Source of the DNA: Vicugna vicugna
Taxonomy: Eukaryota
Direction of reading: 5' to 3'
Length of the DNA stretch: 64,000 nucleotides
Assembly: GCA_013265495.1 (NCBI GenBank)
Contig: MU057744.1
Location: 1,056,001-1,120,000 of the forward strand
Shown here in pieces: positions 5,584 through 26,268 of the stretch. The notes under the pieces were generated by a model. The model saw nothing but the letters and a program-made list of their open reading frames with translations. It searched no databases and had not been told where the DNA came from. Made by a program: the position numbers and the translations under genes. Within the stretch, counting starts at the first letter, position 1. Every line of letters begins with the position of its first letter.

Positions 5584-6190
5584 TGTTGCGGAAAAACCGG
5601 CCTCTGTGCCCACAGCCAAGACAGAAACGGAGACAGAGTTTGGGGAGGATGGAAAACAACAGCTTTACTGCTTTGCCAGGCAAGGGGAGTCACAGCAGAC
5701 GACTGCCTCAGAGACCGTGAGCCCATCTTGGGGAAAGGGTCCCGAGGTTTTTTACAAAAACTTGATAGGAACAGGAGAATGGTCATCAGGGTGTGTGCAG
5801 GGGGCAGTATTTCTCAATCGCGATGAATCCACCTGGTATCATGGAGAAACTCCAGAGGGTCTGTTCATTTTTCTGAAGTTCTCAGTCCCCGTCTGTGATC
5901 TCCTTCCTTGAACAAGTCTTCTGGGTTAAAGAGAAACTATTCTAAGAAAAGAATGTTTAAGGAGAAAAGAATGTGTAGCCCAGGGGCTTGTTACTTACGA
6001 AGGGTGATTAGCCAGAAGCGGGGGCCAGAACAGCCCTCTACTGGTAGCTTTCTCCTTGTTCAAAGGGGAGGCTAGGGAAGACATCTGGTGGCCAGATCTG
6101 GTTATCTGTAAAACAGCTCAGGAATGTGCATCAGACGATCAGTCTGGGCGCCAGTGGCACAATCATTGCTTGCTGAGGCCTGCTCTTTTA
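5584..6190 (-). mobile_element. Solo ERV LTR (right boundary uncertain)
   Basis: Begins TGTTGCGGAAAAA; contains AGCTTTACTGCTTTGCCAGGCAAGGGG, the reverse of an LTR R-region poly(A) motif. Confidence 0.55.
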
Positions 6191-6449
6191 CGTCTCAGGG
6201 AGGCCTGGAAGACCGGCTGTCCTACAGAGGAGAGGCAGGAGCCGGGGGGTGGGGGGGCGTGGGCCCCGGACTGAGACGCATCCGGTATCTCTGAACATCT
6301 GAAGTGGTCGGACCTGCGCTCTAAACTGCTTACACGTTTCCCCAGGGAAGTAGGTAACTCTGAAACCAGCCGCGCACCAAACTGGCCCAGAAGCCCCGGG
6401 GGGCCCGAGAGGACGGGGCTCTGGGTCGAACCCACTCCCCATCCTCCAA

Positions 6450-7450
6450 GTCAGGTCCTCTTGGATGGTCCTGTTTGGACTCAGACCCAGGCAGACAAGG
6501 AAGCAGACGTGGGGAGCACCCGACGCCGGCCCCGCCCCGTCCCCCCGCGGGCGACCCGGGGAAGGCGGAGACGGCGCTGGGGCCCCTCGGCCGTCGCCGG
6601 GTCCAGCCCGGCCCTGAGCCCCGCCCCGAGACGCGGCGGCGGGCGCGCGCGGGCCGAGGTGGGAAGGCTTCTCCTCCCCGCTTCCCCGCCCCGCCCTCAC
6701 CCCCGACGGCGGGGCGGAGGCAGCCGGACCCGCCCCGGAGTCCGGCAGACGCCCCCTGCCCGCCGCCCCTCTGCTCGTCCCGCAGCGAGCCGGTCGCGGT
6801 CTGAGTGCCCAGAAGTCCGCGAGCCCCCAGCCCAGCAGAGCCCCGAGCGCGCCCCCGACACAGACGCTGGGCCGGCGGCGGGGACGCGGGGGCGCGCGAG
6901 CCGGAAAATGGCGGCGGACTGACGCCTCCCACGGCCCGTAGCCTACGCGCACGCGCACGCGCACCCCGACGACGCGCAGAGCGCCGCGACGCCCGCCGGG
7001 GTGAGTCGGGGAGGCGGCGGCTGCGGGGGGCGCGGGGAGCCCGGGGCGCGGGGTGGGCGCGGCCGCCCTGCGAGTGGCGCCCGGGGCCGAGCCGCCGTCG
7101 CCGTCGCGGTCCTCCCGGCTGCAGACCCCGGCCGCCCTCGCGCCGCCTCCCCGCGGTGGGGCCGCGGCTCCCGCCCGGCGTGTTCAGGGGCGGCTCGGGG
7201 GGTTCAGCGCTGCCCCGACGCTGACCGCGCTCCGGGGAGACGCCGCAGTGTTGCACCCGAACCGCCCTGGTCCGCGCGCCGCAGGCTCCTAGTGAAGCGA
7301 GCCAGCGCCCGTCCCGTCCCCGTGTGCTTTCGGGACGACTGGCGTCACGCAAGCGTCGGGCTTAAATCGGGTGGCTCTGCGGTCGCGGTGTAAATTATGA
7401 ATGTGGCTGCGGCATGTGTGTGTTTTTGCTCTTGTTGATGCTGCCCGAGT
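6450..7450. promoter_or_regulatory. CpG island / LGALS8 promoter
   Basis: Very GC- and CpG-rich; GC boxes, CCGGAAAATGGCGGC (ETS plus YY1 motif) at 6901-6915, GCGCACGCGCACGCGCA (NRF1-like) near 6947-6963. Confidence 0.85.
6900..7000 (+). other. LGALS8: LGALS8 non-coding exon 1 (start approximate)
   Basis: Strong donor GGG|GTGAGT at 7000/7001 inside the CpG island, upstream of the ATG exon. Confidence 0.65.
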
Positions 7451-7619
7451 CTGACGCAGCAGAACCAACAGTTGGAGGTTTTGACCAGCGAGCAAGGGAA
7501 GAGATCGGGGCCGCGGCTGTATCCCGAGAGAGATGCGGGTGCCCCTCCCCCGCTGTACGGCGTATGTGACACATCGAAATTGTGTATATTTAGGGCATAA
7601 AACTTGCCGTTTCGGTTAC

Positions 7620-8070
7620 ACCGACTTACTTTCTTACAGCGCTTAGATCAGAAATCTGGGACCAGGCAGAGTACTCTCATTAGGCGTCGCTGAAAGTCAG
7701 GAGTTACCCGGTTTGGGCTCTTCTAGAGACCCCGGGGAAGAATGCCTTCCAGGGTATTTTAGCTTTCGCCTGCAGGGTTCCTTTCCTCCTTAGAGTTTCC
7801 CTGTGTGCCCACCTACAGGCCATCTCAGATGCCAGCAGTGATGCGTTAACTCCTGCTCGGGCTCCAAACCCCTGCTTTCCCCTGCTGCCGCCTCTCCGGC
7901 TCAGGGAATTACATCGGGCCCGCAGGGGATCCAGGACAGTCTCCCTGTCTTGACGTCAGCTGGCTCACAACATTGATCACACCTGCAGAATTCCTCTGCA
8001 GTGGAACATGGATGTAACGCAACCATCCAGGGTTGGAGACTGCTGTTCTCTTCGCGCCCTGCCCTATGGT
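7620..8070. mobile_element. MaLR (MLT1-like) LTR remnant
   Basis: CTTACAG..TCAGAAATCT, GGGGAAGAATGCCTTCCAGG and TACATCGGGCCC..GGATCCAGGACAGTCTCCCTGTCTTGA resemble MLT1 motifs. Confidence 0.5.
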
Positions 8071-8870: not shown

Positions 8871-8912
8871 ATGACGTCCTTAAACAGTCTGCAGAATGTC
8901 ATCTATGAGCCG
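8871..8912 (+). CDS. LGALS8: LGALS8 exon 2 coding part (exon starts ~8766)
   Basis: [14 protein letters not shown]|gtaact. Confidence 0.9.
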
Positions 8913-11900
8913 GTAACTGATTTCTGTAAAATCACTTTTGCTTGTGGCAGGTTTGAGAGCAAATCCAGCTGGATAGTAATTGTCCACTGCTGAGGCGGGG
9001 TAGTGGGAGCAAGAGTGGAATTCACTGCACACCAGGGAAGCAGGCACTGTGATCGGGACTGTGGTGGGGCCGGCTCGCGCAGACACAGCCCCGGAGCCGT
9101 GCAGATGCTCGGTGCGAGCTGGCCCTCTCTGTGCTCGCCGTTCCGCATCTGGGGACCCAGCCAGCCACTGTCGGGTAGCACGCACTTACTGAAAAAAATC
9201 CAGGTGTAAGTGGACCGCCCAGTTCAGAGCTGTGTTGTTCAAAGGTCAGCTGTGTAAGGTCATGTGGGGTGTCATGAATGGAGGAAACGCCACCTCCGCT
9301 GCTGGTGGGAAGGCTCAGATCATAAGACACCGTTTTCAAAGGAACGGATTTCTGACTCTACAGGTTTTACTCTTCTGTTTTAACTAGACCGGTTGATAAG
9401 TTCATGTCTCAGCTTTTCCCTCTGTCCTTCAAATACTGCTTGGTACTTGAGCAGGGAGACGTCAACAGCTGGTGCTGAGCGGGAGGAGGAGGAAAGGTGA
9501 CCGCTGTGGCCTGGCCTCAGGCTGGTCCTGGAACCCCTGCGTGCAGTTGCTGGAAATGCCAGTGTACGTCCTGGGAAGTGCCAACTTGTTTTAGTTTCAC
9601 ATGGTGTGAGAATCTTGGAAGTGTCTAGTTTCCATGTATCCGAAGCTGAATCCTGAATTGTGGTCTGAGAGAGAGCTGCTGCATTTTTTTGGAAACCCCG
9701 GAGGAGATCTGGGACAGTGGGGCAGTCCTTGAAGTAAGGCCCTAAACCAGTCTTTCTGGTGTAAGTGGGTTCAGGTGTTTCGTTATTTACTTTGTATCCA
9801 GAGCTCTTTTTCCCCCTCAGTTTTAATGTCCTTGTGCAAGAGTGACGTACCACCACCTGATAAAGCGAATTCAGTTTTACCAGAAACAGCCTTCAATGGC
9901 AGTAGGTGTGTAAAGGAAGACGTGGTGGCTTTGAGGTCGGCAGGACATTTAAAATGATTTGTGCGTCTTAGAGTTAAAAACATCTCAGAGTTGCAGACTG
10001 ACATCCTGCAAAGATGGGTGGCTGAAGGGTAGGCCCGGGTCCTTGAAGCAGGAGGAACGGCTGGTCGGCTTGTGCTGTTCAGTGCTGCCTGTCATCACAG
10101 AAATGCTGTATTTGAATGTTATTTGGAAAATAAACTTATGGATTAAAATCCCTGCGTACCTTGACACTAGCATAATGATGACTCCTGTAATTCTGGACTT
10201 TGCACCCTCACCTGTGGAGCTGAAACAGCGAGACGCCGACCTTTCAGCCCCTGAGGAAGGGACCCCGCTTTGGAGCAGCAGCTGCCTTCAGGGCTCCCAG
10301 CGGCCTCGTCCGAGGCAGTTCACGATGACGGGTGCCCTAAGTAAACGCCGGCTTTGCCTGGCGCTTATCTTGTTAGTGATTAGTTCAAACAGTGGGGATG
10401 TGTTTATTCAGCTTCTGCGGTGTTCTTTATCAAGCCCTGTGCAGACACAGCACTGTCACCGTTTAGTTTTTATTTCTTAGTGTTTCTGAAGTTCTGGTCC
10501 ACATTGGTGGTAGACAAGTTTTGTTCATATTAATTAACTCTTGGAAAAAACAGAGTAACTTGTGTGACTGGCCTCTGTCAATTTCCCATATTTAGTCTGT
10601 TTCCATGACTAGTTCAACTGATAGATCCCAGGACTTAAAAAGTCAGGCTCGCTTTTCTTCCCACTCACATTGAATGAATAATACCAGAAGTGGCCTCCGT
10701 GAAATCTGCTGTTTGGCAACTCAGTATCAACCTGAGTAACTCACTGTTTATACATAGAGTTCTTAAGGAGGGGTGGAGTGCTGGCTGGCTGAGAAGTTAT
10801 TTAGAGACTAAGCAGACTGGTGGTCGCTCCAAGTTAACAAACCACGTGTGAACATTAATCCCACTGTTCCCTTAAAGCTCTTGCTTCCACTCTCGTTAGA
10901 AGCCTTACCTCCACATCTGTCCTTTCTCCTTAGCTTTCTGAGTACCTCCCTTTCTACCTTGCGAGTTAATCTGAAAACGCAGAACAGTAAAATCTTTTTA
11001 AGCTCCGAGGGCCCTTCCAGCCTTTGTGCTCTTGTTCTTCCTTTGCTGACCGCCTTCCTGAGAGAGTCCATTTCTGCTGCCTGCATTTCCTCCCCTTGGC
11101 TTTGCCCTCTGATTTTCTTACTCCCTTAACTTCTTTCTTTTCTTTACCAGTCTTGTCTTCAGCGTCTCTGCTTCTGTCAGCATCTCTGCCCATCACCTCT
11201 TGACCATGTGTAACCCGCGGTGAATCTCTCACTCTCTCAGACGACCGGCCATCCCCTCAGAGGGCTGTGAGTTCAAAACTAAACTCCCATCTTCCTTCCC
11301 GAACCAGCTTCCCTTTTTCAGTTTTCCGTTTCTCTCTGTCCGTCCATACTACCGAGCCCCAGTAGTTTGAAGACAATCTGTGTTCAGAATTTAAAATTCA
11401 TTTATGTCAAACCCAGTGGCTTTTCCTTTTTTGAAAAATTATTTTAAAAATATAAAGAAAATATGTGCAAATCATTTTTTAAAATTCAAGCAGTATTTCA
11501 GGGTTTCATAAAACACAAATTTCCCTGCTCCCTTAGTGCCTGGTTTCCCCCGGAAAGGCCGTCACTTCCTACCAGCTTTGTGTGTCCCCTTCCTGAGAAC
11601 ATGCACGAGCACGCTCAGACACTCAGCACGTGTGTCGTGCAGCTGTGTTGAGAGTGCGTGGGCCATTGCATTGCCTCTTACGTGTCCTGTTTCCTTACGT
11701 GCATGTGTCAGGCCACATGAACTGTCCTGCACCCTGCTTTTTTCCACTAAACACGGTTTAGAGATACTGGTGTCTTTAGAGCTTCCTCACTGTTCTCATG
11801 GCTGCATAATTACTCTGTTACATGGACGTACGGTGGCTTACTTAACCAGCCCCCTGTAAAGGGCTGTTCACTCTGATGGTCATGTCCAGTGCCTGTGTAT

Positions 11901-14900
11901 GCGTCTCTGTGCACATGTGCTAGTGGCTGTTTTATTTGACTTCTTTTGGAGTCACTTGTGCATGGACACAGTCACTGACCCAGGTTTTGTAAGATAAATC
12001 CATGAAAGCGGTGTCACTGGCCCAGAGGGTGTGATATCCATTCATTGTCTTTTTTTTTTTTTTTGGACCTTTCTTATTTTGCACGTTAAAGACATTGACA
12101 GTCCTCCCTGTGCTGGAACTGACTTCCTTGACACAGCGGCCCTGCAGGCTGCCGGCCCTCCTCCCCCTTCCCTGGTGAGGCCTCCAGCACGGCCTCACTT
12201 CTCATGACTCAGCAGGCGGGCACCCCGCCGGCTACGTCTTTGCAGAGTGAAGTCACAAAGGGAAAGGCACAGGGGGCGAAGCCCAGGGGAACCAGAGCCC
12301 AGTGGAGTCCCACAGGTGCACCTCAGTCTCCTAGCAGCTAGCTGGACGGCACGTGTGAAGCGCTACTCCCCAGGGAAGCGCCTCAGACTCACTGCCCAGG
12401 GTTTTTATTGAGGGCTGGCCGCGCGTGGACAGCCCCTGCCCGGCACGGACCAAAATTCCAGACTCCCGGCAGGAGGGCAGGGGTTTAGCGTAAACCATAC
12501 TGTTCGCACAAGCCGTTTTGGTAAGTAACCCACCCTTCTCAGGTAGGGGGTGGGCGCCATCTCCAAATCCAGTTCCAGACACCAGCCGAGGGCCCACCTT
12601 GGAAGGAGGCCTCTTGGAGACCGCGGCCAGGTCTGCTTGGTGAACCCCTGTGCACCCCCTAATCCGACAGGCCGCTGAGGCTTTGCTCCTGACCGTGCTC
12701 TCAGTGTATCTCCCGTGATGTCCTGAGTGACTGTCTCTCCTCTGACTGTGAAGTATGAGTTCTGGTCACTCACTCAGCGTTAGCCCTGAGTCTCCCCCTC
12801 AGGGTGGTAGGCTGTCCTGCCAGCCCTTCACGCCGACAGTGTTCAGCGTGAACTCGCCATCTTCCTTCTGAGATCGCTTTCCTCCCCAGTTGTACTGCTG
12901 TAGGTAGTGGCCCCACGTGGACAGTTTCCTTTGAAGTATTTCTTGTATCTGCGTCCTCCCACCCCCTTAGTGTCTCCTGCCATCAGCCCAGATTATGTCC
13001 TCATCCCCAGGCTTGCTGGAAGTTGTCCCCAAAAACCCCCTGCCCTCCAGCTAATTTTACCCCCACTGGATTGCTGTTCCCAAACCCACTGTCAGAATTT
13101 CACTCTAAAACCTGGCCCTGGCTCCGTGTTTAACTGCTTCCTTCCTAGTCACTGTCTCCCAGGTGCGTTTTGTCTTCTCCTGCCTCTGCTTTTGTGAGGT
13201 GACATCTCTGCCTGAACTGGCTTCCTCTCTGCCTAACTTCTTCCCCGCTCACGCCGTGCCTCCTTCCTAAACTGTCTTCGGCCGCCTCAGTTAGAATTCT
13301 TTATACAGTTTTCTGAAGCATTTATTTGACACCTACTGCCCCACTTTTTTGTGGTGGAACAGTCAGGGTTTGTAGTTGCAAGCACAGAGGCCAGTCTCCA
13401 ACTGACGTAGAAAAGGGATGTGCCGGGTGGCACTGAGGAGTCTCGGGTCTTTGGTGGGCAGGACTGAAGAGCCAGGCTCGGCAGCCAGACAGCCACAGGC
13501 AGCAGCCCCGCCCACGCTCCTGTCACACCGGCTGCCGCCACTGGTCACGTCACAGGGGCCTGACTGGCTCGGGCACGGGGCTCTGGGCGGCTGCAGGTGA
13601 GGTGAGAGGCTTAGGGCCCGGGAAGGGCAGTGGGGTTTGTGACTGACCCGGGGGGGGGGTGCTGAAAGCAGCCCGCCTGAGCTGGCGTGAGGTTGGGCGT
13701 GACCCGGCTGTTGGGTTGTTAGGGCAGACGCGCCAGTGAAGAGTGTCCTTCACCTGCTGAGGGCTGGCAGGCGGGCATCGGGGAGCCCACGCGTGGGCGC
13801 CGCTGGGCCCGGCGGGCCGCCTGCTGGCCGCCCGCCCCCTCCCTTGCCACAGGAACAGTGGTTGTGAGCGGGCGAGCGGGCCGCGGGGCGTCTGCCTGCT
13901 TCCGTGGTCCGGAAGTGCCGAGGACTGCTGCCGGGACTCGGGGTGCTTCCCGAGGCAGAGAGCGGTCACCCGGACAACTGAAACGGCAAGTGGCCGAACT
14001 CTGCAACACGGCTGCTGCTCAGGAACAACGTATTGACAGCTGCAGCGGTCTGTTAGCAGTGACAGAGTCGACGACGGCCTCAGAAAGCTCTTCCCAGCCT
14101 TGAAACTAAATACGTAATACAATGTCTGTGGTTAAAAACATCGTAAGTGCTTATTACAGAAATCGGGAAAAGCAAGTCCAGAGAGGGGTGCGGTTACCTC
14201 CAGCGCTCATCGCTGGTACTTCGGCCTGGGCTTCGTGACGCTCACAGAAATGGATGCCTGAATAAAATAGTAAGATACTTAAAGAAAAGACATCTGGAAA
14301 ATATGTGAAGAAAATTAGAATCTCATCCTTCAGGAAAACTACTGCAGCACTTGTGGCTGATTTCCTTACAGTGTTTGCTCCTTCCTGTTCAGCGTTTACC
14401 GTTACTGGAGACCACACTGTCTAGTTTTGCAGGCCACTTGCTCACTGATGTTTGTATCACCAGTGTTTTTGTGTTACTAAATAGTCTGCATAAGTATGAG
14501 TTGAACGTATACAAACATTCAAAGTTACAAAAACTGTTCTCATTTTATTGAGAGATTTAGAGCGTGGAGGGTCCTGCTCTTCTTGTCCTCGGGCCGAGGC
14601 CCCGAAGATCGGGGTGGAGGAGTAGTGTCTCCCGTGTTCCCTGCACACAGAACCGTCCGCTCTGGTGTGCAGCTGGAGCCTTGCTCTGCTCGCCCACCCA
14701 GCCTGCCCTCGGCAGCCGCTCATCTCGTTACTTACCTGCAGGTGCCTGGCCTCCCACAGCCCAGTTTGCGGGCTGGTGAGAGCGCCTTCATCCCTGGTGA
14801 TTACTGGCCATCTCTCGACCTCTGTCCTGGATGTAAAGGTGACGGCCATGTCCTGCCCTGTGCAGCTGACAGTCTAGGTGTGTGTGTGCAAGTGAGCGGA

Positions 14901-17900
14901 GTCTGGACAGCCGGGCAGCCCCTCGGAGGAGGCTGGCTCAGTTGGCCCCGAGTCTGAAAGAGGCTCCAGCGGAGAATGTGCCTGAGCTGAGGGTTTCAGC
15001 TCATGAGCCTCCAATGATTACCGCTGTTTTATGTCCTCTGTCATTTACTTCTCACTTGCCGACAGTCCGAGCTACCTGGGATGGACAACGTCGCTGTCGT
15101 AAGCCGGCTGAGCCTGCAGGCGGCTTGTGGTGTGTGGCCTGATCACCCGCTCCAGTGCTCGGTGGCCGAGGAGGTGGTGGTGACGCAGGGGAGGCAGGTC
15201 TAGCCGGTGGCCTGACCGGGGGAGGGGTGGTGGCGGAGCCTCCTCTGGGGGAGGGGAGTGACAAGATCTGATAGCGTGTCGGCCCCAGACGGAAAGGCTG
15301 GGTTCCACGTGAGGAGGGGGTCAGTGGAGACCCGGAGACCCTTGGAGCACAAGCCTGTGCCCTGCACCGGGTGGGCAGGTGGATGCTGTGTCATGAGAGG
15401 TCCACGGGCGCCCAGAGCTCATCCTTAAGGTGGTGCGGTCCTCTGGTGCCCTGTGGGGTGCAGGTGATCCCCCAAGTCCCAGGTGTGGCCAAGTGGCTTC
15501 ACCTGGAGCGCCCTCTGCAGGCCGTGAGTGTTTGTCATTGTCTCTGTCCACACTGGCCTTTGGCTGCGCAGGCCAGGATCCTGCTGGCGGGACCCTCAGT
15601 GGAACTTCAGGAAGGAGGGAGGGGTGGGGGCCTGGCAGCACAAGCTGTTTCGTCTGTTATCTGAATTACCCTATTGAAGTTTTACTTCACACGCCCTCCA
15701 GCCAAATAAACAGTACTGTGAATGACACTTATGTACCTTTTCGTAAAGAACACGGAGCGGTCTGCAGATGCGGTGAGTTTCCTAGCCCTGCTGTTTTGTG
15801 TGGCTGTTTAAATAGTGGAGATGACTTGGAAAATGCTACGGTCTGAGCACCTTTATACACAACCTTCAAAAATGCTGTCTTTTGATTTTCTTTATGTAAA
15901 TGAACATTTGTTACGTTTCTCCTAGGGAATCCCCTACGTCGGGACCATTTCTGAGCCGCTGGAGCCTGGAACTTCGATTGTGCTACGTGGGCACGTCCCT
16001 GGTGACTCAGACAGGTAAGTCCTCGTGTGAGAAGGGAAGGGACGGGGCAGACTATCTCCTTGTGACTGCGGGATGGCAGCAACGCGCAGTGCGGCCGCGG
16101 CCGTCCCGATGCCCCGAGGCCTGACCATGCTTTCAGCAGTGGCCCCGGCCAAGGTGCTGGGGAGATGGGTGAATGACTGAAATCCGGGTCATCTGGGGTT
16201 TTTATTTATACTGTGATTTTTAGTACAAAGAATTAGATACGTGATGAAGGGAACCGCAGTCAGATGACAGGGAGAGTCTAGCTGCAGGACAACCACCCCA
16301 CAGTGTTTGTTAAGATCTGTGTTGGGTGGTTTTACCTCAGACATGCTTACTTTGGGGGCAAACCCTGGACTAGGCTGGATCAGTCTGAATTGGACTTGCC
16401 TTTCTGTGGCCGATGCCCAGGTAGTGACGATTCAGATGAGACGTGAGCGCTCAGTTGGAGGAGCTGCCTGGGCGTCCCAGGGCGCTCGGGCCCTCGCCCT
16501 GCAGCCCCGGGGCCGGCTCCTCTTTCTACGGATTCTTGGAAGCCAAGACTAGTCTTCACACCGTGTTTTGGGCCGCCGGAGGGGAAGGGCCCGGGTGGAC
16601 AGAGGCAGCTGCCAGCTGGTTTTTGAGGCTGATTCTAGTGGTTTTCCCTCAACACTCCCCCGCACCCCCAAACTTGAAGCGAAGGCTGGAAACCTGGGCA
16701 CTTACCCAGATGGGTCAGCCCAGCTACAGCTCAGGGTCTGTTATGAAGGAAGAGGGGAGGGGGTGAGGCAGCCAGGTAGTCAGGCCACGCGGGTGAGGAA
16801 CCAGGGGACCCGTCACGTGTCCCCGGCCTCCTCTCTGAGCCTGTGTGGCCCGTGTTCCTCTCCTCATGCAGATTCCAGGTGGACCTGCAGTGTGGCAGCA
16901 GCGTGAAGCCCCGGGCGGACGTGGCCTTTCACTTCAACCCACGGTTCAAAAGGGCCAACTGCATTGTGTGCAACACTCTGAGAAATGAAAAGTGGGGGTG
17001 GGAAGAGATCACCTACGACATGCCTTTCAAAAAGGAAGAGTCTTTTGAAATCGTGATCATGGTCCTGAAAGAGAAATTCCAGGTGGGTCGTGGAGGGTGG
17101 TGGGCCCTGGGTGACGAGGGGCGTGCAGGGGGTCTCCTGTGGGGGGGCTCCCCCTGCGCTGCTGATGCCCAGAGAGCTTGCTCTTTCTCCTGTCTCGGGG
17201 GGGCGGGGGCGGGCCCCCAGCATCCCCTGTGGACACTGCCGGGCGGTGGGAGCAGGCCCAGGGTGGCCAGGCTTCTACCAGGCTGTGTCCTCCCCGTGCG
17301 GCACAGCGCTGTGCTTGGGAAGGGACAGTAAGCTGTCACCCCATGCCCCAGGGTGGGGGGTCCAGGCTACAGACACGGGATCCTGCAGTGGAAGTCGGAA
17401 GATTTTGTAGAGTTAAGTCCTGCTCTGGGATGGTTCTGCAGGAGTGTGAGATTTTAGACCCAGAGATCTGAGAAGTCGTCTGTGTAGCAAGTACTGTCCC
17501 CTGGCGCCATCCGGCATAGCTTGTGTAGGTGGAGTCTGGTCCTAGAGGCCCGACCCCGCCAGCCCCCAAAGCCTGTCTAGCCTCCCGGCACAGAGATCTG
17601 AGGCTCAGAGGAAGCCCCCGCAGCCCTGGTGCAGCCCTCCCCCTCCCGCCCCCAGCACGCCCCCTCCCCTGGCCTGGGGAGCGTCTGCGTCACGCAGTGT
17701 AACTCTCGTTCCTGTGCTGTTGTGCTTTGGTGTTTCCCGGCGTTTACTCTCCTGCCTGCTGGTGGGTTCTCAGCTCCTCGAGGTCGGAGCTGGGGCTGTG
17801 TTCCGCATGTCTCCCTGAACGTGGTGCCAGGCGTCTGCGGAGGGCGCGGGTGTCTGCTGTGCCTCAGGCCTTGGCTGGGGCCTCGTCGAGTGACCAGGGG

Positions 17901-20900
17901 CCCTTGGCAGGAGAGCCATCTCCTGCTCAGACGGGCGCCTGGGGAAGCCGAGTGGTCCGCCCTGGGCGCTTGTTCAGCAGGTGCAGCAAGGGTTCAGAGA
18001 GCACCTGCCACATGCGGGCTGGTCCCCTAAGAGCGTGGGCCCCTGGGACAGCAGGGGGCTCACTGCACCCTGCGGTCTGACCTGCGTGCCTCGTGCATGC
18101 GGACACGTGTCGTGAGTGCAGCGTTCGTCTCACCAGGTGGACTCAGGCTGGAGACACCCTCATCACAGCCTGTCAGACAGGCGTGTGGAGGCCTGTGGGG
18201 AGAGCTGTGAGGTTAAATCCGTGTCAGCAGGTTTAATTTGGGGAAGTTAATAAAATGAACTCATGCGCGGTCCCCTGGGGGGCTGCCTTCTTTCTGTGCA
18301 GGTGGCCGTCAATGGCAGACACGTCCTGCTGTACGCGCACCGCATCCCCCTGGACAAGGTAGACACGCTGGGCATCCGCGGCCAGGTGACCATTTGCTCC
18401 GTCGGCTTTTGTTTCAGCCCGGTGAGTGCCACGCCCGTCGTCTGACAAAGCGGCAGGAAGCATCTTTGATGTCTTCTGTTGAGATGAGAAAACGTGAACA
18501 GCTGCCTCATTTCCGTATAAAGTTTCAGAAGTCAGTCTTCCAGACTAGTAAGAGCACCCAGATCGACCAGGGCCTTCCTGGCCGTGGATGGCAGATCTGG
18601 CCCGGTTCCCAGAAACCCAAACCAGTCACAGCGGGGCGGGCAGACAGGCAGGCAGACAGCGCTCTGGCTGGACAGGGGCGTGTCCTCGATGCAGGAGCTC
18701 CAGGGTGGCTCCCGGGAGCGGAAGGGCCACATCAGAGGGCGCCTGCACGTTCCGTCACGGCTGAGACCGCTAACCTGCCCTCCAGGGAAGAAAAGCGGGC
18801 GACAGCCTCGCCGCCTGCGCCGCTTCCTCCTGTTCCTGAGGCTCATTCCTGCTTGTTCCGGGAGTGGGAGGGCCCTAGCGTCACCTGCATTTAGGGGTCA
18901 TAATTTCCTAGCATTTTCTTGTTTAGTGCCATTTGTGTTACTGTCTTTGATGTATTAAGTAGATTACATTTAGAATTCTGATGGATGTTAAATCCTAAAA
19001 AATAAATAAGTTTCCGTCAGGGCGTGAGAAGTGCCCAGGCAGCTGCTCTGGACGGAGGTGGGTCAAGACCACGTAGACATTAAGTCTCTCCACGAACTCC
19101 TGGTTTAAAAATGTTTTAGTTGCCATGTAAGTCAGGTGGCGGGCTGAGGTTTCTGAAATTATGTTCTTAATGTGAAAAATTATGTCTTTAATAACTACTA
19201 GGCTGGAAGCAGTCACTTGAAACCTGAGGCTCAGTCTTGCGGGCACCAGGTGCCGTAGGTTCTGCCAATGCTCAGATGGTCAGAGGTCTGACCACAACCC
19301 AGGCTTGTGTACGGAGACCTCGCTGACTCTTAACTGCCGGGTAGCACTGTCGGTGGGTGTTTTGTCTTTTCCCCCCGTCGAAACGAGTGCAGTTTAAACA
19401 GTTCTTTGCTGCTGTTAGTGGGGACAAAGAGGTCTCACAGACCTCAGCGCAGAGTAGAGCCTCACATGTTGGGAGCACCCTGCACAGAGCCAGCAACCCA
19501 CGTGCGGGGAAATCCGTGGAAGTGGTTAGCTTACGGTGGAGGATGTGGGCCTAAGACAGCCGGGACTGCCAGGCTGTCCCAGCCCGCGTGGCACTTCACC
19601 ACTGCGTGGCCGCTGTCGGAAAGCTCCGGCCGCCCGTCCGGCACCCCCAGGTCAGTGCGAGCGTGTGGTGTGACTGCTTTTGTTACAAAATGTTCTCTCT
19701 TCCCTGTCAAATGTCCTCATTTTGTCTTTGTTTTCCAATAGGTACCAAAGTCTGACATGCCGCAGTTTGTAAGTATTTTCGCGCTAACCCATGGAATGTG
19801 TTACCGAATTGCCCAGGAAAGGAATAGTTTAAACCTTGGAAGACAGCTTCGTTGGTCCCATCCCTTACTGCAGGCCTGTCTCCCTGCAGCCTAGTAATAG
19901 AGGAGGAGGCACTTCTAAAGTCGTGCCCAGAACTGTCTACACCAAGAGCAAAGGTTCGACAGCCAGTCACACTTTGACTTGCGCCAAAATTCTGCCTACC
20001 AACTGTCTGTCAAAGGTTTGAAGAGCCACACGTTTCTTAATTCTGTGTAATGAGTTAAGTTTTAGTTAGCTGTATGTGTAACCTGCCCTCGCAGACGCCC
20101 ACGGCAGCCTCCCTGCGTTTGTCTGGGCATCCAGGACGATGTCAGCCAGCCTGGCATCACGTCCTGAGCCGTCAGTGCGTGTCCCCTCGGCCACCTGAGC
20201 CCGGCTGAGCCCTGACGCTGAGGGCCTCCTCCGAGGGAGCTTCCCTCCTCCGAAGGATGTCCGGTCCCCCCACACCCATCCACGCTTGTCTGAACACACC
20301 CTGGCGTCTGCTGAGAGCCAGACACAGGCTGGCTGCGGGGGACCTGCCCTGGGGTTTAGGGGGTCTTGGCCTTTAAGCGTTGCCTGGTGTGTTTGGACAG
20401 ACTCCCCGCGAGACCCCATTCCGCAGGCTTCCTGGTGCTGACGGCGGTTTCTTCGCAGACCCTGCCCTATGTGGCGAAGTTGAACTCCTCCATGGGCCCT
20501 GGACGGACGGTCGTCATTAAAGGAGAAGTGAACACATGCGCCAAAGGGTATGAGAGTGGCCGCCGCATCGGGAAGGCTCTCCCCGGGTGGCACTCGGGCC
20601 GCACTCCCTTAAGTTTCGAGGTCGGGGGAGGGGGGTGGCAAGGAGCGGCTGCCTGGCAGGCAGCCCACTGTGAGGAGCAGGGGGCACATCGTGCCGAGGC
20701 CGGGTGTGCTTGGAGGGACCCTCTTCCTGCGGCTGATGAAATCCTTCAGTTTCTCCCAACCAGTTCTGTAGCCTTAATGTTGATTTTAAAGTTTTCCATA
20801 TTTTTATTTCGTATAAAACATATCAATGAAACGCCAACTCAGAATTTTAAGTTTCTCTTTGAGCAGCATTCCAGGGTCCTCATGCATACTTCCTTGTAGT

Positions 20901-23669
20901 CAGAATCAGAGTTTCTCATTGTTAAAACTAAGAAATTGCACTACTGTCTTCTACTTGGTTAATTAGAGTTTTTTTTTAATTCTCTCAAAAGCTTTAATGT
21001 TAATCTACGCTCAGCAAAATCCAGGGCAATTGCTCTCCACCTGAACCCACGCCTCAACAGTAAAGCGTTCGTGAGGAATTCGTTTCTTCAGGAGTCCTGG
21101 GGAGAAGAAGAGAGAAATATTACCTGCTTTCCATTTAGTCCTGGGATGTACTTTGAGGTGAGAGCATCTTTGTTGGAAATGAGGCAGGAAAGAGAAGCCT
21201 GGGGGTGGCAGTGGTCCGTTAAGTCGGGTCCAGCTTCGCGGGTGGAGACTGCGGTCTGTTTACTCAGAGACATATTCCTGGAAGCTCTCTCGCCCTGGGG
21301 ACCATCAGCTTCAGTGGCCGCGGCAGGTGGCGTCTGCACAGGGATCAGTGGCATTTGTTCTAGTAGGAATTTTGACAGGGACCTGGTCTCGGGGCTGGAG
21401 GAACGTGTCTAACCCAAGTGAACACGAGGACACAGGAGCCACAGGCCTGGCTGCACGGGCCGGCGTGGCCCCCGGGGCAGGACTCTGTTCCGAGTAGTCC
21501 TATTTGTGTGTTGTCAGCGAGGGATACGTTTAGACCGTTGGGACTTGAAGGCACCTGGTCCTGGGTCCCCAGTAGGTGCCTGGGCTGCCGAGCGCGATCA
21601 GCCTAGCATGTGGGTGCTGGGTGCTCAGCAGGGCTCGCTCACTGGCTTTGGTGACTCTTTGCCTCACAGGGTCACCGTGGGTCATTTACTCAGGTCCTGC
21701 TTCGACAGCGTTTTAAATTGTCAAGAGAGGCAATACCAAGGCTGAATAGAAGATGGCGGTTTGACGCCAATATTTATTCACATTTGAACACAGCGCCCTG
21801 GATGTGGTGTCAGACGCGAGCTAACCCCAGGCTCCCTGGAAGTCGTGGGTGTTGGTTTGGAGTTGAGAGGATGTGGGGGTGACTTGAGCAGGGCCCAGGT
21901 GAGGGTCTGCTGACCCGGCAGGAGTTGGGCGTGACGGGTGCCTCGGGGTCCCTGGAGGGGAGGAGGGGCTGCTCCAGAAGGAAGTGGCTCTTGTGGTTGG
22001 TGACAGGAAACCAGCAGCTTGTCTTCTGACCCGAGCCCGAGTCTGGAACTGCGGTATTAAAATTTAAAAGGACAGTAATGGGTGATCATCTTTCCCTGTT
22101 AGCTTCCCACTCCGGGAACGGTAGTTACTCTCCTGTTGGGCCACGTGTCAGTGTTTTGTCGTGACAGACCTTTTCCAGTAGCCTCGACCTCCCGCCTCGG
22201 GAGGGGATTCTCGGGCCTCCCCTCCGGCATTGCTTCGATTCTACGTGGTGTCTCTGCTCCTCATTAGTCCTCTCTCAGCTGTGATCTCATCTGTGAGCTT
22301 TTTATCAGATTCACGTTCTTCTGTTCAGATGGTTTGGCTGTTCAGGTGGTGTGAGGGATTCTGTGGTTTCCCTTGGGTCTGGGGTCCTCTTCCTTTCCCG
22401 CTGGTAACGCGCTGGCCCTGCCTGGTCCGAGGCCGTGAAGGGGACTGACTCCTGTTCCGCTGCGTCCACCTGCTGCTCGTCTTCCCTTCCGGGGGAGGCT
22501 GTGTTGTGTCCTCGTGAGATGCGGTGAAGGGTGCGGCCCCTGCGGCCCCTTCCACCCGGTGGTCGCTGGCTGCCCACCATTGCCGCAGGCAGGTAACCTG
22601 GGCCTGGGTGTCCCCTGGTTCTCCATGTGGCCCTGACTTCTGCCAGTTCCTCCACTGTCCCTGGGACACCACCCCCCCAAGCTCCCCGCAGCTGTCTCCA
22701 TGAGCTCCCCAGCAAAAGAGAAAGGACTCGGCTTGCTGCTTTGCAGATGCAGACTCCGCCTCAGTCTGGTGCCAGGGCTGGAGCCTGGGAGCCCGCCGTG
22801 GGGACACCCGCCCCGGCGGCCTCCATGTGGGCTGGAAACAGGCAGAGGATCCGTGGTATCAGAAGCACAAGGCTTAGATGTAAAAGTGATTAAACGGGTA
22901 GCGGTTTCTTTTGTTTTTATCACTACTATGAGTTTAGGCAAAGACCTCTGAGGGGCTGATGCCAGTGATGCATCAGAACCGAATCTGCCAGCACGCTCAT
23001 CACCCTCTAGTGTCACGGGCTGCCGAGCTCCCTAGCTTTGGAGAGACAGACGAGATGTTCTGAGCTGGGAGGGGACGCAGGGCCGCCAGGCAGCTGTGCA
23101 GCCAGTCCCTAGCCAGTGCCCGAAACTTGCAGAAGCTCACGCTGAGCGGTCCAAGACCCTAGGACTTGAAGCGAAAAGTCAGGACCCACGTGCTGTGGTT
23201 CCCGTCCCTGAACGGTTCCTCTTGGCGGTCTTTAGTGTGGCCAGCCATTGGTGAGGAGGGTGACACCCACCTCCAGGGACAAGGGGTGGAGGGGCGTGTG
23301 CTGAGGATGGAGGCCAGCAGGCCCTGGGCTTCCCGGAGTGTATCCCTGAGCGGGACGAGGCAGGAGGTGCCCCCGGCAGACACGCTTCAGCCCGATCTGG
23401 GTCTTGGGGATGACGGCGGGGAAGGTCCCAGAAGCAGGCTGGGAGAACGTCTCCAAGCGGTTTACTTGCTGACACTCTGTTCCCAGAGGAACCACTAACG
23501 CTGTGTGCTTCCCTTCCAGATGATAATTTATTGTGACGTGAGAGACTTCAAGGTGGCAGTGAACGGCGCGCACAGCCTGGAGTACAAGCACAGGTTCAAG
23601 GAGCTCGGTGACGTCGACACGCTGGAGGTTGACGGCGACATCCGCTTGCTGGAAGTGAGGAGCTGGTAG
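8871..23669 (+). CDS. LGALS8: Galectin-8 (tandem-repeat galectin), spliced CDS: 8871-8912, 15926-16014, 16872-17082, 18302-18421, [19021-19072 frameshifted], 19742-19768, [19890-20015 optional], 20459-20547, 20992-21157, 23520-23669
   Basis: Two CRDs with HFNPRF..CNT..WGWEE and HLNPRL..VRNS..WGEEER motifs; GT-AG junctions with matching phases; 297 aa without both bracketed exons, 339 aa with the 126-nt exon. Confidence 0.97.
9117..9253. mobile_element. Tigger2/MER8-like DNA transposon MITE
   Basis: Terminal AAAAAATCCAGGTGTAAGTGGACCGCCCAGTTCAGAGCTGTGTTGTTCAAAGGTCAGCTG and matching AGCTGGCCCT left end. Confidence 0.65.
11480..12110 (-). mobile_element. Old L1M (L1ME-like) fragment
   Basis: CATGGCTGCATAATTACTCTGTTACATGGACGTAC..TTAACCAGCCCCCTG antisense L1M 3' motifs. 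Confidence 0.45.
12170..12656. mobile_element. MER21-family LTR
   Basis: ACTCACTGCCCAGGGTTTTTATTGAGGGCTGG..ACCAAAATTCCAGACTCCCGG..TAAACCATACTGTTCGCACAAG matches my recollection of the MER21 consensus. Confidence 0.7.
15926..16014 (+). CDS. LGALS8: LGALS8 exon 3
   Basis: cctag|[30 protein letters not shown]|gtaagt, 89 nt. Confidence 0.95.
16872..17082 (+). CDS. LGALS8: LGALS8 exon 4 (N-CRD core)
   Basis: [48 protein letters not shown], 211 nt. Confidence 0.97.
18302..18421 (+). CDS. LGALS8: LGALS8 exon 5
   Basis: [40 protein letters not shown]|gtgagt, 120 nt. Confidence 0.95.
19021..19072 (+). other. LGALS8: Orthologue of LGALS8 linker exon 6, frameshifted (52 nt)
   Basis: tcag|[10 protein letters not shown].. 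then TEVGQDH|gtagac in a shifted frame; resembles human DLQSTQASSLELTEISREN. Confidence 0.7.
19742..19768 (+). CDS. LGALS8: LGALS8 exon 7 (27-nt linker micro-exon)
   Basis: aatag|VPKSDMPQF|gtaagt. Confidence 0.9.
19890..20015 (+). CDS. LGALS8: LGALS8 alternative long-linker exon (Gal-8L)
   Basis: ctgcag|[42 protein letters not shown]|gtttga, 126 nt, frame-preserving. Confidence 0.88.
20459..20547 (+). CDS. LGALS8: LGALS8 exon 9
   Basis: [29 protein letters not shown], 89 nt. Confidence 0.95.
20992..21157 (+). CDS. LGALS8: LGALS8 exon 10 (C-CRD core)
   Basis: [55 protein letters not shown], 166 nt. Confidence 0.96.
23520..23669 (+). CDS. LGALS8: LGALS8 last coding exon
   Basis: [49 protein letters not shown]. 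Confidence 0.96.
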
Positions 23670-24891
23670 CCGCCCGCCTGCCCGCTGCAGAAGCTGAAAT
23701 ACAGAGTGGCTTCCGTAACACTGGCCTGGCTGGCGTGCGTCTTCCCGGCACGGCACGGTTCACGTACACTGTTAACTAGTGAGCTTGCAGAGTTCGGTCC
23801 CCGCACTCGGCCATGCCGGGCAGGGCGGCCTCGTGTAGCAGAGTCTGAGTAGCACCTTCTCGCCGTTACCGAGGCCTCTCCCCTCCCCTGGCCTCCCCTG
23901 CTTAGACCCCCTTCACTGAGCGCTCCCCTGCCAGCTGTGTGCTGGCAGCCCCCGGGCTCCCTGCTCTGCTGAGCTCAGACCCTCCTTTGCCATCGCACCA
24001 TTGTTTCCTCTTCAGGCACTACATAAACTCACCAGGGACTTGAGAGAATCACTCTTAAATCACCTAAAGACACTAGCTTACAGGGTGACCGCTCACACCC
24101 AGGCTCAGCCACGTCCCGTAACCAGAAGGACTTGCACCTGGCGGTTTCCTTTAGCACCGTACTTAGCTCTACTAGCTGCAGGCATTACCAAGTCATTAAC
24201 ACGACGAACACCACACAGCACGAGAAGGCGAAAAAAAGCTGTTTGGCAAACAAACCAAATGGCGTTGAGATTTGCCTGATGTCAATCTCAAGGCCTCTGC
24301 TTTCCGCACCAGTAACTGCTCATTTTAGATGCTGGCACTGAGGGTGAGTCAGACGCCTGCACGCACTATACACAAAGTTCAAGGTGGGAGCAAGACGAAT
24401 TCAACGTGTACAGTTTTACGGGAAACAGGGCAACGTCAGGATTAGACTGAGTGACGAGGCAGGCCCCGCCAGGTGACCTCGCCCGGCGAGAGGCAGCGCG
24501 AGCCCGCCCCGTGCAAACCAGCTCAGCCCTGCGCTTCCGAGCGCGGCCCTGTCACTGTTAGCGCCTGAGATCAAAACAGCGTCCCGCTTTGATTAAATCA
24601 GGCCTGTGCCAGCAAGTCGGTGCTGCGCTGCTGGGATGTTTTGTTGCTCTTTGAAGAGAGCTGGCAGGTCTTTGTAGAATTCTTACAGGTCAGGTCTCGT
24701 TGCAGGAAACTTCAGAGGCTTGGGACGGGGAGGTAAACAGCTCAGTCAGATCATCTTATGGTAAATTGCTGGGCTGAACTGGCCAGGATTTGGGAACACT
24801 ATCGTAACAGTTTTTGGTTAGGCGTGATTTGTAATAATAATGTCTATTACCAGTCTTCCAGCACTAATGCTTTCCCACCTTTTCCTGTTAA

Positions 24892-24897
24892 TTTATT
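24892..24897 (-). terminator. Candidate HEATR1 polyadenylation signal (AATAAA on - strand)
   Basis: TTTATT on + strand; first canonical signal I found downstream of the HEATR1 stop. Confidence 0.5.
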
Positions 24898-25462
24898 GTG
24901 CTAAGTTGTGCAAGCTTAAAAAAAAAATGGAGGGGGAACGTTGGGAAAGTTGTGAAAGGCAAGGAGGGGGTAGAATCCCCCAGGGTTATTTTTCCCTTCA
25001 GAAAATAACATCTGATGACATAGGTTTTGGTCTTTTGGACCAAACCTCTTTAAAAACACATCTGATAAAAGCTGAGCTCTTTGCAAAAAAAAAAAAAAAA
25101 AAAAAAACCACCAGAGGGCATGGCAGAAACTGAAGGCCAGTTAGGAGAAAAGGGAAGCCCACTTACATTGTTTTCTCCGTTTGAACAGTGCAGCTTCATT
25201 TTACATGGCTGCATCACTAAGACCTCAGACTGATTCTCTGATAGAGTAAATACAAAATCTTAAGATGTTTTTTGAAAAGAAACATTTCTTAAAGAGAAAA
25301 ATGCACTCACCCACAGCAAGCTCTAACTCCAAACTGCAAACCAGCCTCTGCTGCTCGGTCCTAATTCTGCACCAAACCCTCAGATTAGATCAGGGGCTTT
25401 CAAACTCAGTTTGAACACCTATGGGAGAGTTCTAAGATGCTGTAAATTTTAAAAAGGCATGA

Positions 25463-25494
25463 ATTAAAAAATAAAATGCCTTAAACAAAATAAA
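25463..25494 (+). terminator. Candidate LGALS8 polyadenylation signals
   Basis: ATTAAA 25463, AATAAA 25470-25475 and 25489-25494; a variant ATTAAA also at 24592. Confidence 0.5.
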
Positions 25495-26268
25495 GGCACA
25501 CTGGTTTCATTTTGAGCCCTCACTTTCCAGCCTCACCGTGACACAGCACAGAGATCAGAGAACTTCAAAGCTCTGAAAAAAACTGTCTCATACAAGGCAC
25601 TCCCGGTTAGGCTGCAGTGGAAGCGCGGTCACGGCCGGTCCCGGGAGGCCCGCTTGGCGTCCCCGAGCGTGTCTGGGCCCTCCCCAGTTGTGGGTCAGGC
25701 GGCCGGGGGCGGTGGGGCGGCGTTTGTGAACAAGCCCCACCTCCCCCGCCCCCCAGAGACTGAAAGGGAAAGGAGGCCTCCGCCATCTGGGGCAACGCGC
25801 ACACAGGAAGGTGTCACCCACCCATAACGCAAGTAAAATCCAAACGGCTTTCTAGCCGAGAGCACTTCTGCTGAGTAACCATCACCTCAAGGTAAGGAGA
25901 GAAGTCGGACATGGATACTGCGTACAGAAGACCTTCCTCCACCAGAGAAATCAGGGCCTCCAGCCCGCACGACCCCACTGCCAGCTCCGGGTCTGAAAGG
26001 AGACGCAGGAAACGTTAGCGATCCCGAGGGACGACCACAGCCAACGCTCAGACCATACGGCAGCCCGCACGGGGACAGCACTGTCCTTTACTCGGTGACA
26101 TCTCCACAACCAGCGGGAGGGGCCTGCGCGGGGCACAAACCAGGGGGGAGTTTTGTAAGGAAGTCCGAGGAGGTGTTAAGGCACCAAAAGTAACATGGTC
26201 CTCAACGCTCCAGAGTAAACTGGACGATCTCAACGCGGAACAGAGTCTGAGATACCAAGAGCCGCGTC

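What the first reader, a model, noticed from the sequence alone, without database searches (positions are those of the whole stretch)
19021..19072. LGALS8 linker exon carries an apparent 5-nt frameshifting deletion
Seen: after tcag| the exon reads GGC GTG AGA AGT GCC CAG GCA GCT GCT CTG GA ([10 protein letters not shown]), then CG GAG GTG GGT CAA GAC CAC|gtagac (TEVGQDH in another frame). It is 52 nt, between two phase-0 exons. The human exon as I recall is 57 nt ([19 protein letters not shown]), implying loss of about 5 nt at 19052/19053. Inclusion with either donor (19057 or 19072) reaches TGA at 19753-19755 in the next exon, giving an N-CRD-only protein ending TKV* or an NMD target. Skipping keeps the frame but shortens the inter-CRD linker by 19 aa (297-aa protein). 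A cryptic acceptor at 19042 would give an in-frame 30-nt exon, [10 protein letters not shown]. Known: linker length affects cross-linking by tandem-repeat galectins. Inference: lineage-specific linker remodelling or conversion to a poison exon, while all other exons stay intact.
Basis: partly seen in the sequence, partly recalled or inferred. Interest (0 to 1): 0.7.

Follow-up and report, generated by a model that had tools for sequence, protein, structure and literature searches.

The report
Frameshifted linker exon in camelid galectin-8
In this camelid genome one small optional exon of the galectin-8 gene has lost five bases and can no longer be read in frame, so the animal can probably make only the versions of this sugar-binding protein that skip it; this is a real but modest lineage-specific change.

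Summary
Window 19021-19072 is a 52-nt AG...GT-bounded stretch between the last N-CRD exon of LGALS8 (18302-18421) and the 27-nt linker exon (19742-19768). It is the orthologue of the 57-nt, 19-aa linker cassette exon ("exon A") of other mammals. Its first 30 nt match profile columns 1-10 in frame. Its last 21 nt match columns 13-19 in another frame. One base lies where six are expected, a net loss of 5 nt. Including it, with either donor, gives a stop at 19753-19755 and a 175- or 170-aa N-CRD-only product. Skipping it gives open 297- or 339-aa proteins. The window is alpaca-like: 1 of 339 residues differs from Vicugna pacos isoform X1. None of 8 camelid protein models (3 species) carries exon A, against 64 of 117 non-camelid models, and many non-camelids also have skipped forms. 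So camelids most likely lost the canonical 33-aa-linker and 75-aa-linker forms and keep 14- and 56-aa linkers. Pseudoexon versus poison exon therefore stays open. Interest is modest.

The parts
8871..8912 (+). LGALS8 first coding exon ([14 protein letters not shown])
   Evidence: tblastn of camel P0011, 100% identity; part of the open spliced CDS
15926..16014 (+). LGALS8 coding exon 2
16872..17082 (+). LGALS8 coding exon 3 (N-CRD core, HFNPR...WG.EE)
18302..18421 (+). LGALS8 coding exon 4, end of the N-CRD (…SVGFCFSP), ends in phase 0, donor CCG|GTGAGT
19021..19072 (+). Relic of linker cassette exon A: 52 nt where other mammals have 19 aa (57 nt). Acceptor ...gtttccgtcag| has a weak pyrimidine tract (8 of 20 Y). 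Donor CAC|GTAGAC matches 5 of 9 consensus positions.
19050..19053 (+). Frame break: profile columns 1-10 end at 19050 and columns 13-19 start at 19052, so 1 nt stands where 6 are expected (net -5 nt)
19055..19063 (+). Internal alternative donor GAG|GTGGGT (exon end 19057), matching 7 of 9 consensus positions, which is stronger than the 19072 donor. It gives a 37-nt exon, also out of frame.
19041..19042 (+). Cryptic AG that would give an in-frame 30-nt exon 19043-19072 ([10 protein letters not shown]). Only 6 of 20 pyrimidines lie upstream, and no protein model uses it.
19742..19768 (+). Linker exon B (27 nt, VPKSDMPQF)
19753..19755 (+). TGA reached when exon A (52 or 37 nt) is included
19890..20015 (+). 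Linker cassette exon C (126 nt, 42 aa, [10 protein letters not shown]...NCLSK), open and intact
20459..20547 (+). First C-CRD exon ([11 protein letters not shown]...)
20992..21157 (+). C-CRD exon (HLNPR...WGEEE)
23520..23669 (+). Last coding exon with stop codon (…LLEVRSW*)

Best explanation
The 52-nt stretch is the orthologue of the conserved 57-nt linker cassette exon of LGALS8. In camelids it carries a genuine, probably fixed net 5-nt loss. Any mRNA that includes it is therefore unproductive: it stops in the next exon, is predicted to be NMD-sensitive, and would at most yield a 170-175-aa N-CRD-only product. Productive camelid galectin-8 is made only by skipping it. That gives a 297-aa form with a linker of about 14 aa and a 339-aa form with a linker of about 56 aa. 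The canonical 33-aa-linker form (317 aa, called 'Gal-8S' in human work) and the 75-aa-linker form (359 aa, 'Gal-8L') can no longer be made. Skipping this exon is already a common splice choice in other mammals, so the loss removed one option from a combinatorial linker rather than disabling the gene. I think the relic is now mostly a skipped, decaying pseudoexon (inferred). The lesion probably arose in the camelid stem lineage, during a phase of fast, GC-biased change around the end of the N-CRD and the linker (inferred).
For: The sequence and frames were read directly. Homology and the position of the break: the best profile hits for the N-part and the C-part in the whole intron, on both strands, are adjacent, collinear and bounded by AG and GT. 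The rest of the gene is intact: a 339-aa open spliced CDS, 1 aa from V. pacos X1 and 3 aa from C. dromedarius X3. Annotation: the camelid models are 297, 293, 339, 382, 425 and 222 aa, and 0 of 8 carry exon A (C. dromedarius from two annotation sources, C. ferus, V. pacos). By contrast, 64 of 117 non-camelid models do carry it. An intact exon would be expected to produce 316/358-aa models, as it does elsewhere. Exon A is alternative elsewhere too: B-only or B+C-only linkers occur in Muntiacus, Odocoileus, Balaenoptera, Rhinolophus, Hipposideros, Suricata, Sorex and Galemys models. Splice signals are weak: acceptor tract 8 of 20 pyrimidines against 13-15 for the five other internal exons scored, and donor 5 of 9 against 6-8 for the four other internal exons whose donor was scored at its true boundary. 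The relic differs from the mammalian consensus at 11 of 17 alignable codons, while the maximum among 30 distinct non-camelid peptides is 8. That cannot be an assembly slip. Exon 4 shows 12 of 40 changes, with 11 of the 12 changed positions shared by Camelus and Vicugna, and 25 W>S against 6 S>W inferred changes gene-wide. This points to an old, stem-lineage episode. 14 DNA runs from 6 studies hold at least 0.93 of the sampled words of 16800-25800 (not specific to the 52 nt).
Against: No Camelus or outgroup DNA could be fetched. Sharing of the deletion across camelids rests only on the missing protein isoforms. Annotation pipelines do not emit proteins for frameshifted or NMD transcripts, so 0 of 8 says nothing about whether the exon is still spliced in. 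The relic's heavy substitution load does not by itself show relaxed constraint. Its excess over exon 4 (65% against 30%, about 2.2-fold) is no larger than the usual exon A to exon 4 ratio in other mammals (about 23% against 9%, about 2.5-fold). The internal donor at 19057 is good (7 of 9), so the relic could still be recognised by the spliceosome.
Confidence: 0.72

Rival explanations
1. Regulated poison exon. The frameshifted relic is still included in a controlled fraction of transcripts. It then either lowers galectin-8 output through NMD or produces an N-CRD-only lectin of 170-175 aa.
For: Inclusion gives a stop at 19753, upstream of at least three further exon junctions. AG and GT are retained, and there is an internal donor GAG|GTGGGT matching 7 of 9 consensus positions. 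From memory, not from any call: single-CRD LGALS8 transcripts have been reported in human.
Against: The pyrimidine tract is weak (8 of 20) and the original donor is weak (5 of 9). There is no transcript evidence of any kind. I could not test whether the splice sites are conserved between camelid tribes.
Confidence: 0.15
2. Assembly or sequencing artefact. The true exon is 57 nt and in frame, and camelids make the ordinary 316/358-aa forms.
For: The assembly is fragmented (12405 contigs).
Against: A 5-nt loss in non-repetitive sequence is not a typical assembly error. Two other camelid species with independent chromosome-scale assemblies yield no exon-A isoform (0 of 8 models). The same 52 nt also carry 11 of 17 diverged codons.
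Confidence: 0.06
3. Exon remodelling. Camelids use a cryptic in-frame version (for example 19043-19072, 30 nt, [10 protein letters not shown]) and so make a novel 10-aa insert (307 or 349 aa).
For: That candidate is open and in frame, and 8 in-frame AG..GT candidates overlap the relic.
Against: The acceptor has only 6 of 20 upstream pyrimidines and the donor matches 5 of 9. No camelid model of 307 or 349 aa exists among the 8 seen.
Confidence: 0.05

Closest known systems
Human LGALS8 linker isoforms Gal-8S (317 aa, 33-aa linker) and Gal-8L (359 aa, 75-aa linker, extra 126-bp exon)
   Same: Same gene and the same exon set. The window has the 27-nt exon and an intact 126-nt exon, and its exon-A relic aligns with the [19 protein letters not shown] segment of the 317-aa PDB chain. 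Isoform definitions come from passages of PMC6182346 and PMC10895193.
   Different: Both validated human isoforms contain the 19-aa segment. Camelids cannot encode it in frame, so their two forms have linkers about 19 aa shorter (about 14 and 56 aa).
Exon-A-skipped galectin-8 isoforms predicted in other mammals (297-299 and 338-340 aa)
   Same: Identical architecture to the camelid 297/339-aa proteins: N-CRD, exon B with or without exon C, then C-CRD.
   Different: In those species skipping is optional and the exon-A-containing forms coexist. In camelids skipping is the only productive choice.
Natural and engineered short-linker tandem-repeat galectins (chicken Gal-8 with 28- and 9-aa linkers; human Gal-8 crystallised with a 2-aa linker, PDB 3vkl/4han)
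   Same: They show that two Gal-8 CRDs work or fold with linkers as short as, or shorter than, about 14 aa (passages of PMC5856548; PDB alignments).
   Different: Those are a bird orthologue and laboratory constructs. Effects of linker length on cross-linking differ between galectins (PMC5856548), so the functional consequence in camelids cannot be read off them.
Poison (NMD-targeting) cassette exons and decayed pseudoexons in general
   Same: A cassette exon whose inclusion brings a premature stop well upstream of the last exon junction.
   Different: Classical poison exons are conserved and regulated. Here neither inclusion nor conservation could be tested.

Membership tests
LGALS8 (galectin-8, tandem-repeat galectin) orthologue | Two galectin CRDs joined by a linker, encoded by an intact spliced reading frame | tested here: met
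   The spliced CDS from the window is open for 339 aa, 1 aa from V. pacos galectin-8 X1. PF00337 is precomputed for the camelid proteins. The best PDB matches are galectin-8 chains, E 1e-153.
Orthologue of the 57-nt LGALS8 linker cassette exon (exon A) | Position between the last N-CRD exon and the 27-nt exon, bounded by AG and GT | tested here: met
Orthologue of the 57-nt LGALS8 linker cassette exon (exon A) | Peptide similarity to the 19-aa consensus [19 protein letters not shown] | tested here: met
   Top-ranked hits for profile columns 1-10 (z 4.1) and 13-19 (z 3.9) among about 2580 positions on both strands, adjacent and collinear. Only 6 of 17 alignable residues are identical to the consensus.
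Orthologue of the 57-nt LGALS8 linker cassette exon (exon A) | Length a multiple of three (57 nt), phase 0 to phase 0, open frame | tested here: not met
   It is 52 nt, and inclusion shifts the frame to a stop at 19753. It is therefore a relic of the exon, not a working member.
Poison exon (NMD-coupled cassette exon) | Inclusion introduces a premature stop more than about 50 nt upstream of the last exon junction | tested here: met
   The stop at 19753 lies in exon B, and at least three exon junctions follow. The NMD rule itself is established knowledge, not tested here.
Poison exon (NMD-coupled cassette exon) | The exon is actually included in a fraction of transcripts, stabilised when NMD is blocked | not testable with these tools
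No camelid transcript-derived proteins were in the protein collection.
Poison exon (NMD-coupled cassette exon) | Conservation of the exon and its splice sites across related species | not testable with these tools
   No other camelid or outgroup genomic DNA is reachable. The metagenome scan found 0 matches.
Decayed pseudoexon | Weakened splice signals relative to the working exons of the same gene | tested here: inconclusive
   Acceptor tract 8 of 20 Y against 13-15; donor 5 of 9 against 6-8. An internal donor scores 7 of 9, and the ancestral strength is unknown because the exon is alternative elsewhere. These are crude consensus counts, not a trained model.

The most novel reading that the evidence does not exclude
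A burst of GC-biased change in the camelid stem lineage reshaped the hinge of galectin-8. It removed the canonical 33-aa-linker isoform that dominates in humans. The frameshifted relic, with its newly strong internal donor, was kept as a regulated poison exon or N-CRD-only switch. Camelids would then tune galectin-8 cross-linking by a different logic (14- or 56-aa linkers plus an off or monovalent state) than other mammals.
Probability: 0.1. Interest if true: 0.5.

Novelty: new member of a known kind. Interest (0 to 1): 0.3.

Why it matters
Galectin-8 cross-links glycans and acts as a danger receptor in autophagy. Its linker is known to modulate activity, protease sensitivity and partner choice (passages of PMC10895193, PMC6182346 and PMC5856548). 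If the lesion is confirmed, camelids are a natural experiment: the standard 33-aa-linker form is genetically unavailable and only 14- and 56-aa linkers remain. That would be useful for asking which linker-dependent functions are dispensable. It also matters for anyone cloning or raising reagents against camelid galectin-8. It is one more example of lineage-specific loss of a conserved alternative exon, possibly driven by GC-biased substitution. It does not open a new kind of mechanism.

Tried and rejected
1. Read and RNA check. The look-up of sequencing runs listed 14 DNA runs holding at least 0.93 of the words and 5 rows on record as RNA (shares 0.20-0.28), plus one more row only guessed to be RNA (0.26). 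No reads or junctions were seen, and I made no second attempt.
2. Transcript-derived proteins. A search with exon 4 (lengths 71-2000 aa) returned 6 proteins, 5 of them camelid gene models and none from run assemblies of camelids. The clusters of the 297- and 339-aa camel proteins hold 3 and 2 members, all RefSeq or UniRef. This route therefore gives no evidence for or against inclusion.
3. Independent DNA copy. A metagenome-contig scan with the sequence around the break, allowing a 0-6-nt gap, found 0 matches.
4. Retrocopy as a fossil mRNA. A search of the window's own genome with the 339-aa protein found 18 matches. Those off the LGALS8 contig are 32-55% identical, at single-exon scale, and are presumably other galectin genes. 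No long, intron-free, near-identical match (processed LGALS8 copy) was seen.
5. Another in-frame exon A elsewhere in the intron. The profile scan found nothing better on the + strand. The next full-length hit, 18665-18721 (z 3.1), is not preceded by AG.
6. Frame rescue by another acceptor of exon B. By eye, there is no AG at the positions that would give an exon B of length 2 mod 3.
7. Using the relic's substitution load to argue relaxed constraint. Rejected, because it scales with the acceleration of neighbouring exon 4.
8. Earlier notes of this scan: nothing on this genome or gene.
9. Literature. 'LGALS8' plus 'camel' gave 5 papers, none about camelid galectin-8 by title or abstract. The broader search was badly posed, and its 15 listed papers hold no galectin-8 term.
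Full report
**What is in the window**

The window is contig C752:1056001-1120000 of a 2.03-Gb, 12405-contig genome. The + strand between about 8.9 and 23.7 kb carries LGALS8. I placed the exons with tblastn of a dromedary and a horse galectin-8 protein, inspection of the junctions and a rebuilt spliced CDS:
- 8871-8912
- 15926-16014
- 16872-17082
- 18302-18421, the end of the N-CRD (…SVGFCFSP), phase 0
- 19742-19768, exon B (27 nt, VPKSDMPQF)
- 19890-20015, exon C (126 nt, 42 aa)
- 20459-20547
- 20992-21157
- 23520-23669

Joined without the questioned exon, these give an open 339-aa protein. It differs at 1 residue from Vicugna pacos galectin-8 isoform X1 and at 3 residues from Camelus dromedarius X3. 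The animal is therefore a camelid of the South American type, and the gene is otherwise intact.

**The observation**

At 19021-19072 the sequence reads tcag|GGCGTGAGAAGTGCCCAGGCAGCTGCTCTGGACGGAGGTGGGTCAAGACCAC|gtagac, which is 52 nt. I collected the 19-aa segment that follows the N-CRD in other mammals. It is present in 64 of the 125 proteins then held, as 30 distinct peptides with consensus [19 protein letters not shown]. I scored every position of intron 18422-19741 on both strands against it.
- The best match to columns 1-10 is 19021-19050 ([10 protein letters not shown], z 4.1).
- The best match to columns 13-19 is 19052-19072 (TEVGQDH, z 3.9), in a different frame.
- The two matches are collinear and fill the space between the AG and the GT exactly. 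A single base lies where the six bases of columns 11-12 should be.

This is the signature of a net 5-nt loss in the orthologue of the 57-nt exon, which I call exon A here. No other exon-A-like candidate exists in the intron. The next full-length + strand hit (18665-18721, z 3.1) has no AG in front of it.

The 317-aa galectin-8 chain in the PDB copy reads [19 protein letters not shown] at this place. I could not fetch any orthologous DNA, so '57 nt' is inferred from 19 aa.

**Consequences for the reading frame**

- Including the 52-nt exon, or the 37-nt version ending at the internal donor 19057, leads to TGA at 19753-19755 in exon B. The products are 175 and 170 aa, an N-CRD with a short tail ending TKV.
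- At least three exon junctions follow the stop, so by the usual rule such mRNAs should be NMD substrates (established knowledge, not tested here).
- Skipping gives 297 aa, or 339 aa with exon C.
- Eight AG..GT combinations overlapping the relic are open and in frame.
- By simple consensus counts the relic's acceptor has 8 of 20 pyrimidines upstream, against 13-15 for the five other internal exons scored. Its donor CAC|GTAGAC matches 5 of 9 positions, against 6-8 for the four other internal exons whose donor was scored at its true boundary.
- The internal donor GAG|GTGGGT matches 7 of 9. The cryptic acceptor at 19042 has only 6 of 20 pyrimidines.

**Is it lineage-specific, and is it real?**

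A protein search with the N-CRD exon returned 881 hits, and the best 120 were listed. Cluster look-ups and a second search added five more proteins.
- The eight camelid models are C. dromedarius 297, 293, 339, 382 and 425 aa, C. ferus 222 aa, and V. pacos 297 and 339 aa. None contains exon A.
- Of the 117 non-camelid proteins, 64 contain it (my pattern may undercount).
- An intact exon would be expected to give 316/358-aa models, as it does in deer, pig, whales, horses, bats, shrews and primates. The absence in two further camelid species with independent chromosome-scale assemblies is therefore indirect evidence that a disabling lesion is present there too, and that the window's 52 nt are not an assembly slip.
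- It is not evidence that the exon is skipped in RNA, because pipelines do not output proteins from frameshifted transcripts.
- Also against an artefact: the relic differs from the consensus at 11 of 17 alignable codons, more than any of the 30 non-camelid peptides (maximum 8).
- 14 DNA runs from 6 studies hold at least 0.93 of the sampled words of 16800-25800. That is not specific to the 52 nt.

The direct test failed. I saw no reads and no splice junctions.

**Context: a combinatorial linker**

The linkers of the collected proteins show that mammals mix three cassette exons: A (19 aa), B (9 aa) and C (42 aa).
- A+B gives about 317 aa.
- B alone gives 297-299 aa.
- A alone gives 307 aa (horses, rhinoceroses, lemurs).
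- A+B+C gives about 358 aa.
- B+C gives 338-340 aa.
- A+C gives about 349 aa.
- There are extra lineage-specific pieces in horseshoe bats and tree shrews.

B-only or B+C-only models occur in Muntiacus, Odocoileus, Balaenoptera, Rhinolophus, Hipposideros, Suricata, Sorex and Galemys. Skipping exon A is thus an ordinary option. Camelids have lost the alternative, not gained a new form.

In the human literature the two validated isoforms, Gal-8S (33-aa linker) and Gal-8L (75-aa linker, extra 126-bp exon), both contain the exon-A segment (passages of PMC6182346 and PMC10895193). The camelid forms therefore have linkers of about 14 and 56 aa. Short linkers are compatible with function or folding elsewhere:
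- Chicken Gal-8 has natural 28- and 9-aa linkers, with bridging activity negatively correlated with length.
- A six-glycine linker caused partial loss of adhesive properties (passages of PMC5856548).
- Human Gal-8 has been crystallised with a 2-aa linker (PDB 3vkl and 4han).

**Evolutionary setting**

I took residues where at least 5 of 6 outgroups (horse, dolphin, fallow deer, pig, two bats) agree and the window differs. There are 36 such changes. They are unevenly spread:
- 11 of 40 in exon 4
- 3 of 9 in exon B
- 2 of 70 in exon 3

By parsimony on the window's codons they comprise 25 weak-to-strong changes, 6 strong-to-weak, 4 neutral and 5 ambiguous. In the relic the counts are 6 weak-to-strong, 1 strong-to-weak and 3 ambiguous.

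Exon 4 differs from the non-camelid consensus at 12 of 40 positions, where the maximum among 40 other peptides is 8. Eleven of those 12 changed positions are shared by Camelus and Vicugna. The acceleration therefore predates the split of the two camelid tribes and looks GC-biased (an inference; synonymous and intronic sites could not be compared).

The relic's excess over exon 4 (65% against 30%) is no greater than the usual exon A to exon 4 ratio in other mammals (about 23% against 9%). Its divergence therefore does not by itself prove relaxed constraint, and it does not date the deletion.

**Best explanation and rivals**

- Most likely (0.72): a real, camelid-wide frameshift has removed exon A from the productive repertoire. 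Galectin-8 is made as 297- and 339-aa forms, and the relic is mostly skipped.
- Regulated poison exon or N-CRD-only switch (0.15). It is favoured by the retained AG and GT and the good internal donor. It could not be tested here.
- Assembly error (0.06).
- Use of a cryptic in-frame version (0.05). No 307- or 349-aa camelid model exists among the 8 seen.

**Other checks that gave nothing**

- No processed LGALS8 copy in the genome that could preserve an old mRNA form.
- No match in metagenome contigs.
- No earlier notes of this scan on this gene.
- No paper on camelid galectin-8. 'LGALS8' plus 'camel' gave 5 unrelated papers judged by title and abstract. One search was badly posed.

**Verdict**

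This is a further example of lineage-specific loss of a conserved alternative exon in a well-known gene. It is of modest interest (0.3). Its main value is as a natural linker-length variant of galectin-8. The decisive read and RNA tests are listed under next steps.

Noticed in passing
window 18302-19768 (exon 4, exon-A relic, exon B); whole CDS 8871-23669: Camelid-lineage amino-acid changes in LGALS8 are strongly biased towards G/C: 25 weak-to-strong against 6 strong-to-weak inferred changes. They cluster at the end of the N-CRD and the linker (11 of 40 residues in exon 4, 3 of 9 in exon B, but 2 of 70 in exon 3). Eleven of the 12 exon-4 positions that differ from the non-camelid consensus are shared by Camelus and Vicugna. 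This suggests a stem-camelid episode of GC-biased gene conversion.
   Followed up: partly
window 14848-14877: An alternative first coding exon matches the start of dromedary isoform X2 (MSCPAQLTVQ|GIPYVG…). In the window it reads ATG TCC TGC CCT GTG CAG CTG ACA GTC TAG|gtgtgt. The last codon, Q in dromedary, is a stop here, so this alternative start would be unusable in this genome.
   Followed up: partly
proteins P0039, P0042, P0058, P0063, P0064, P0071 (some named Rhinolophus, some unnamed run-assembly proteins) and P0110, P0118 (Tupaia): Extra lineage-specific linker cassettes sit in front of exon A or B: a 12-aa piece in the six bat-type proteins (VSALPERGVVLN in five, VSALPELGVVLN in P0063) and ESARHSFLPTFSEM in tree shrew. 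The galectin-8 hinge gains as well as loses small exons in mammals.
   Followed up: no
window 6001-8000: A stretch of 67% G+C lies upstream of the first coding exon. It is probably the CpG-island promoter and 5' UTR of LGALS8.
   Followed up: no
window residue 146 codon in exon 4 (about 18395-18397): The window encodes Cys where both V. pacos and C. dromedarius models have Arg (…QVTICSVGF against …QVTIRSVGF). This is a species- or individual-level difference at a CpG-type codon.
   Followed up: no
window 24000-64000: The 40 kb downstream of LGALS8 were not examined. The composition profile shows negative GC skew there, and I did not look for what it encodes.
   Followed up: no
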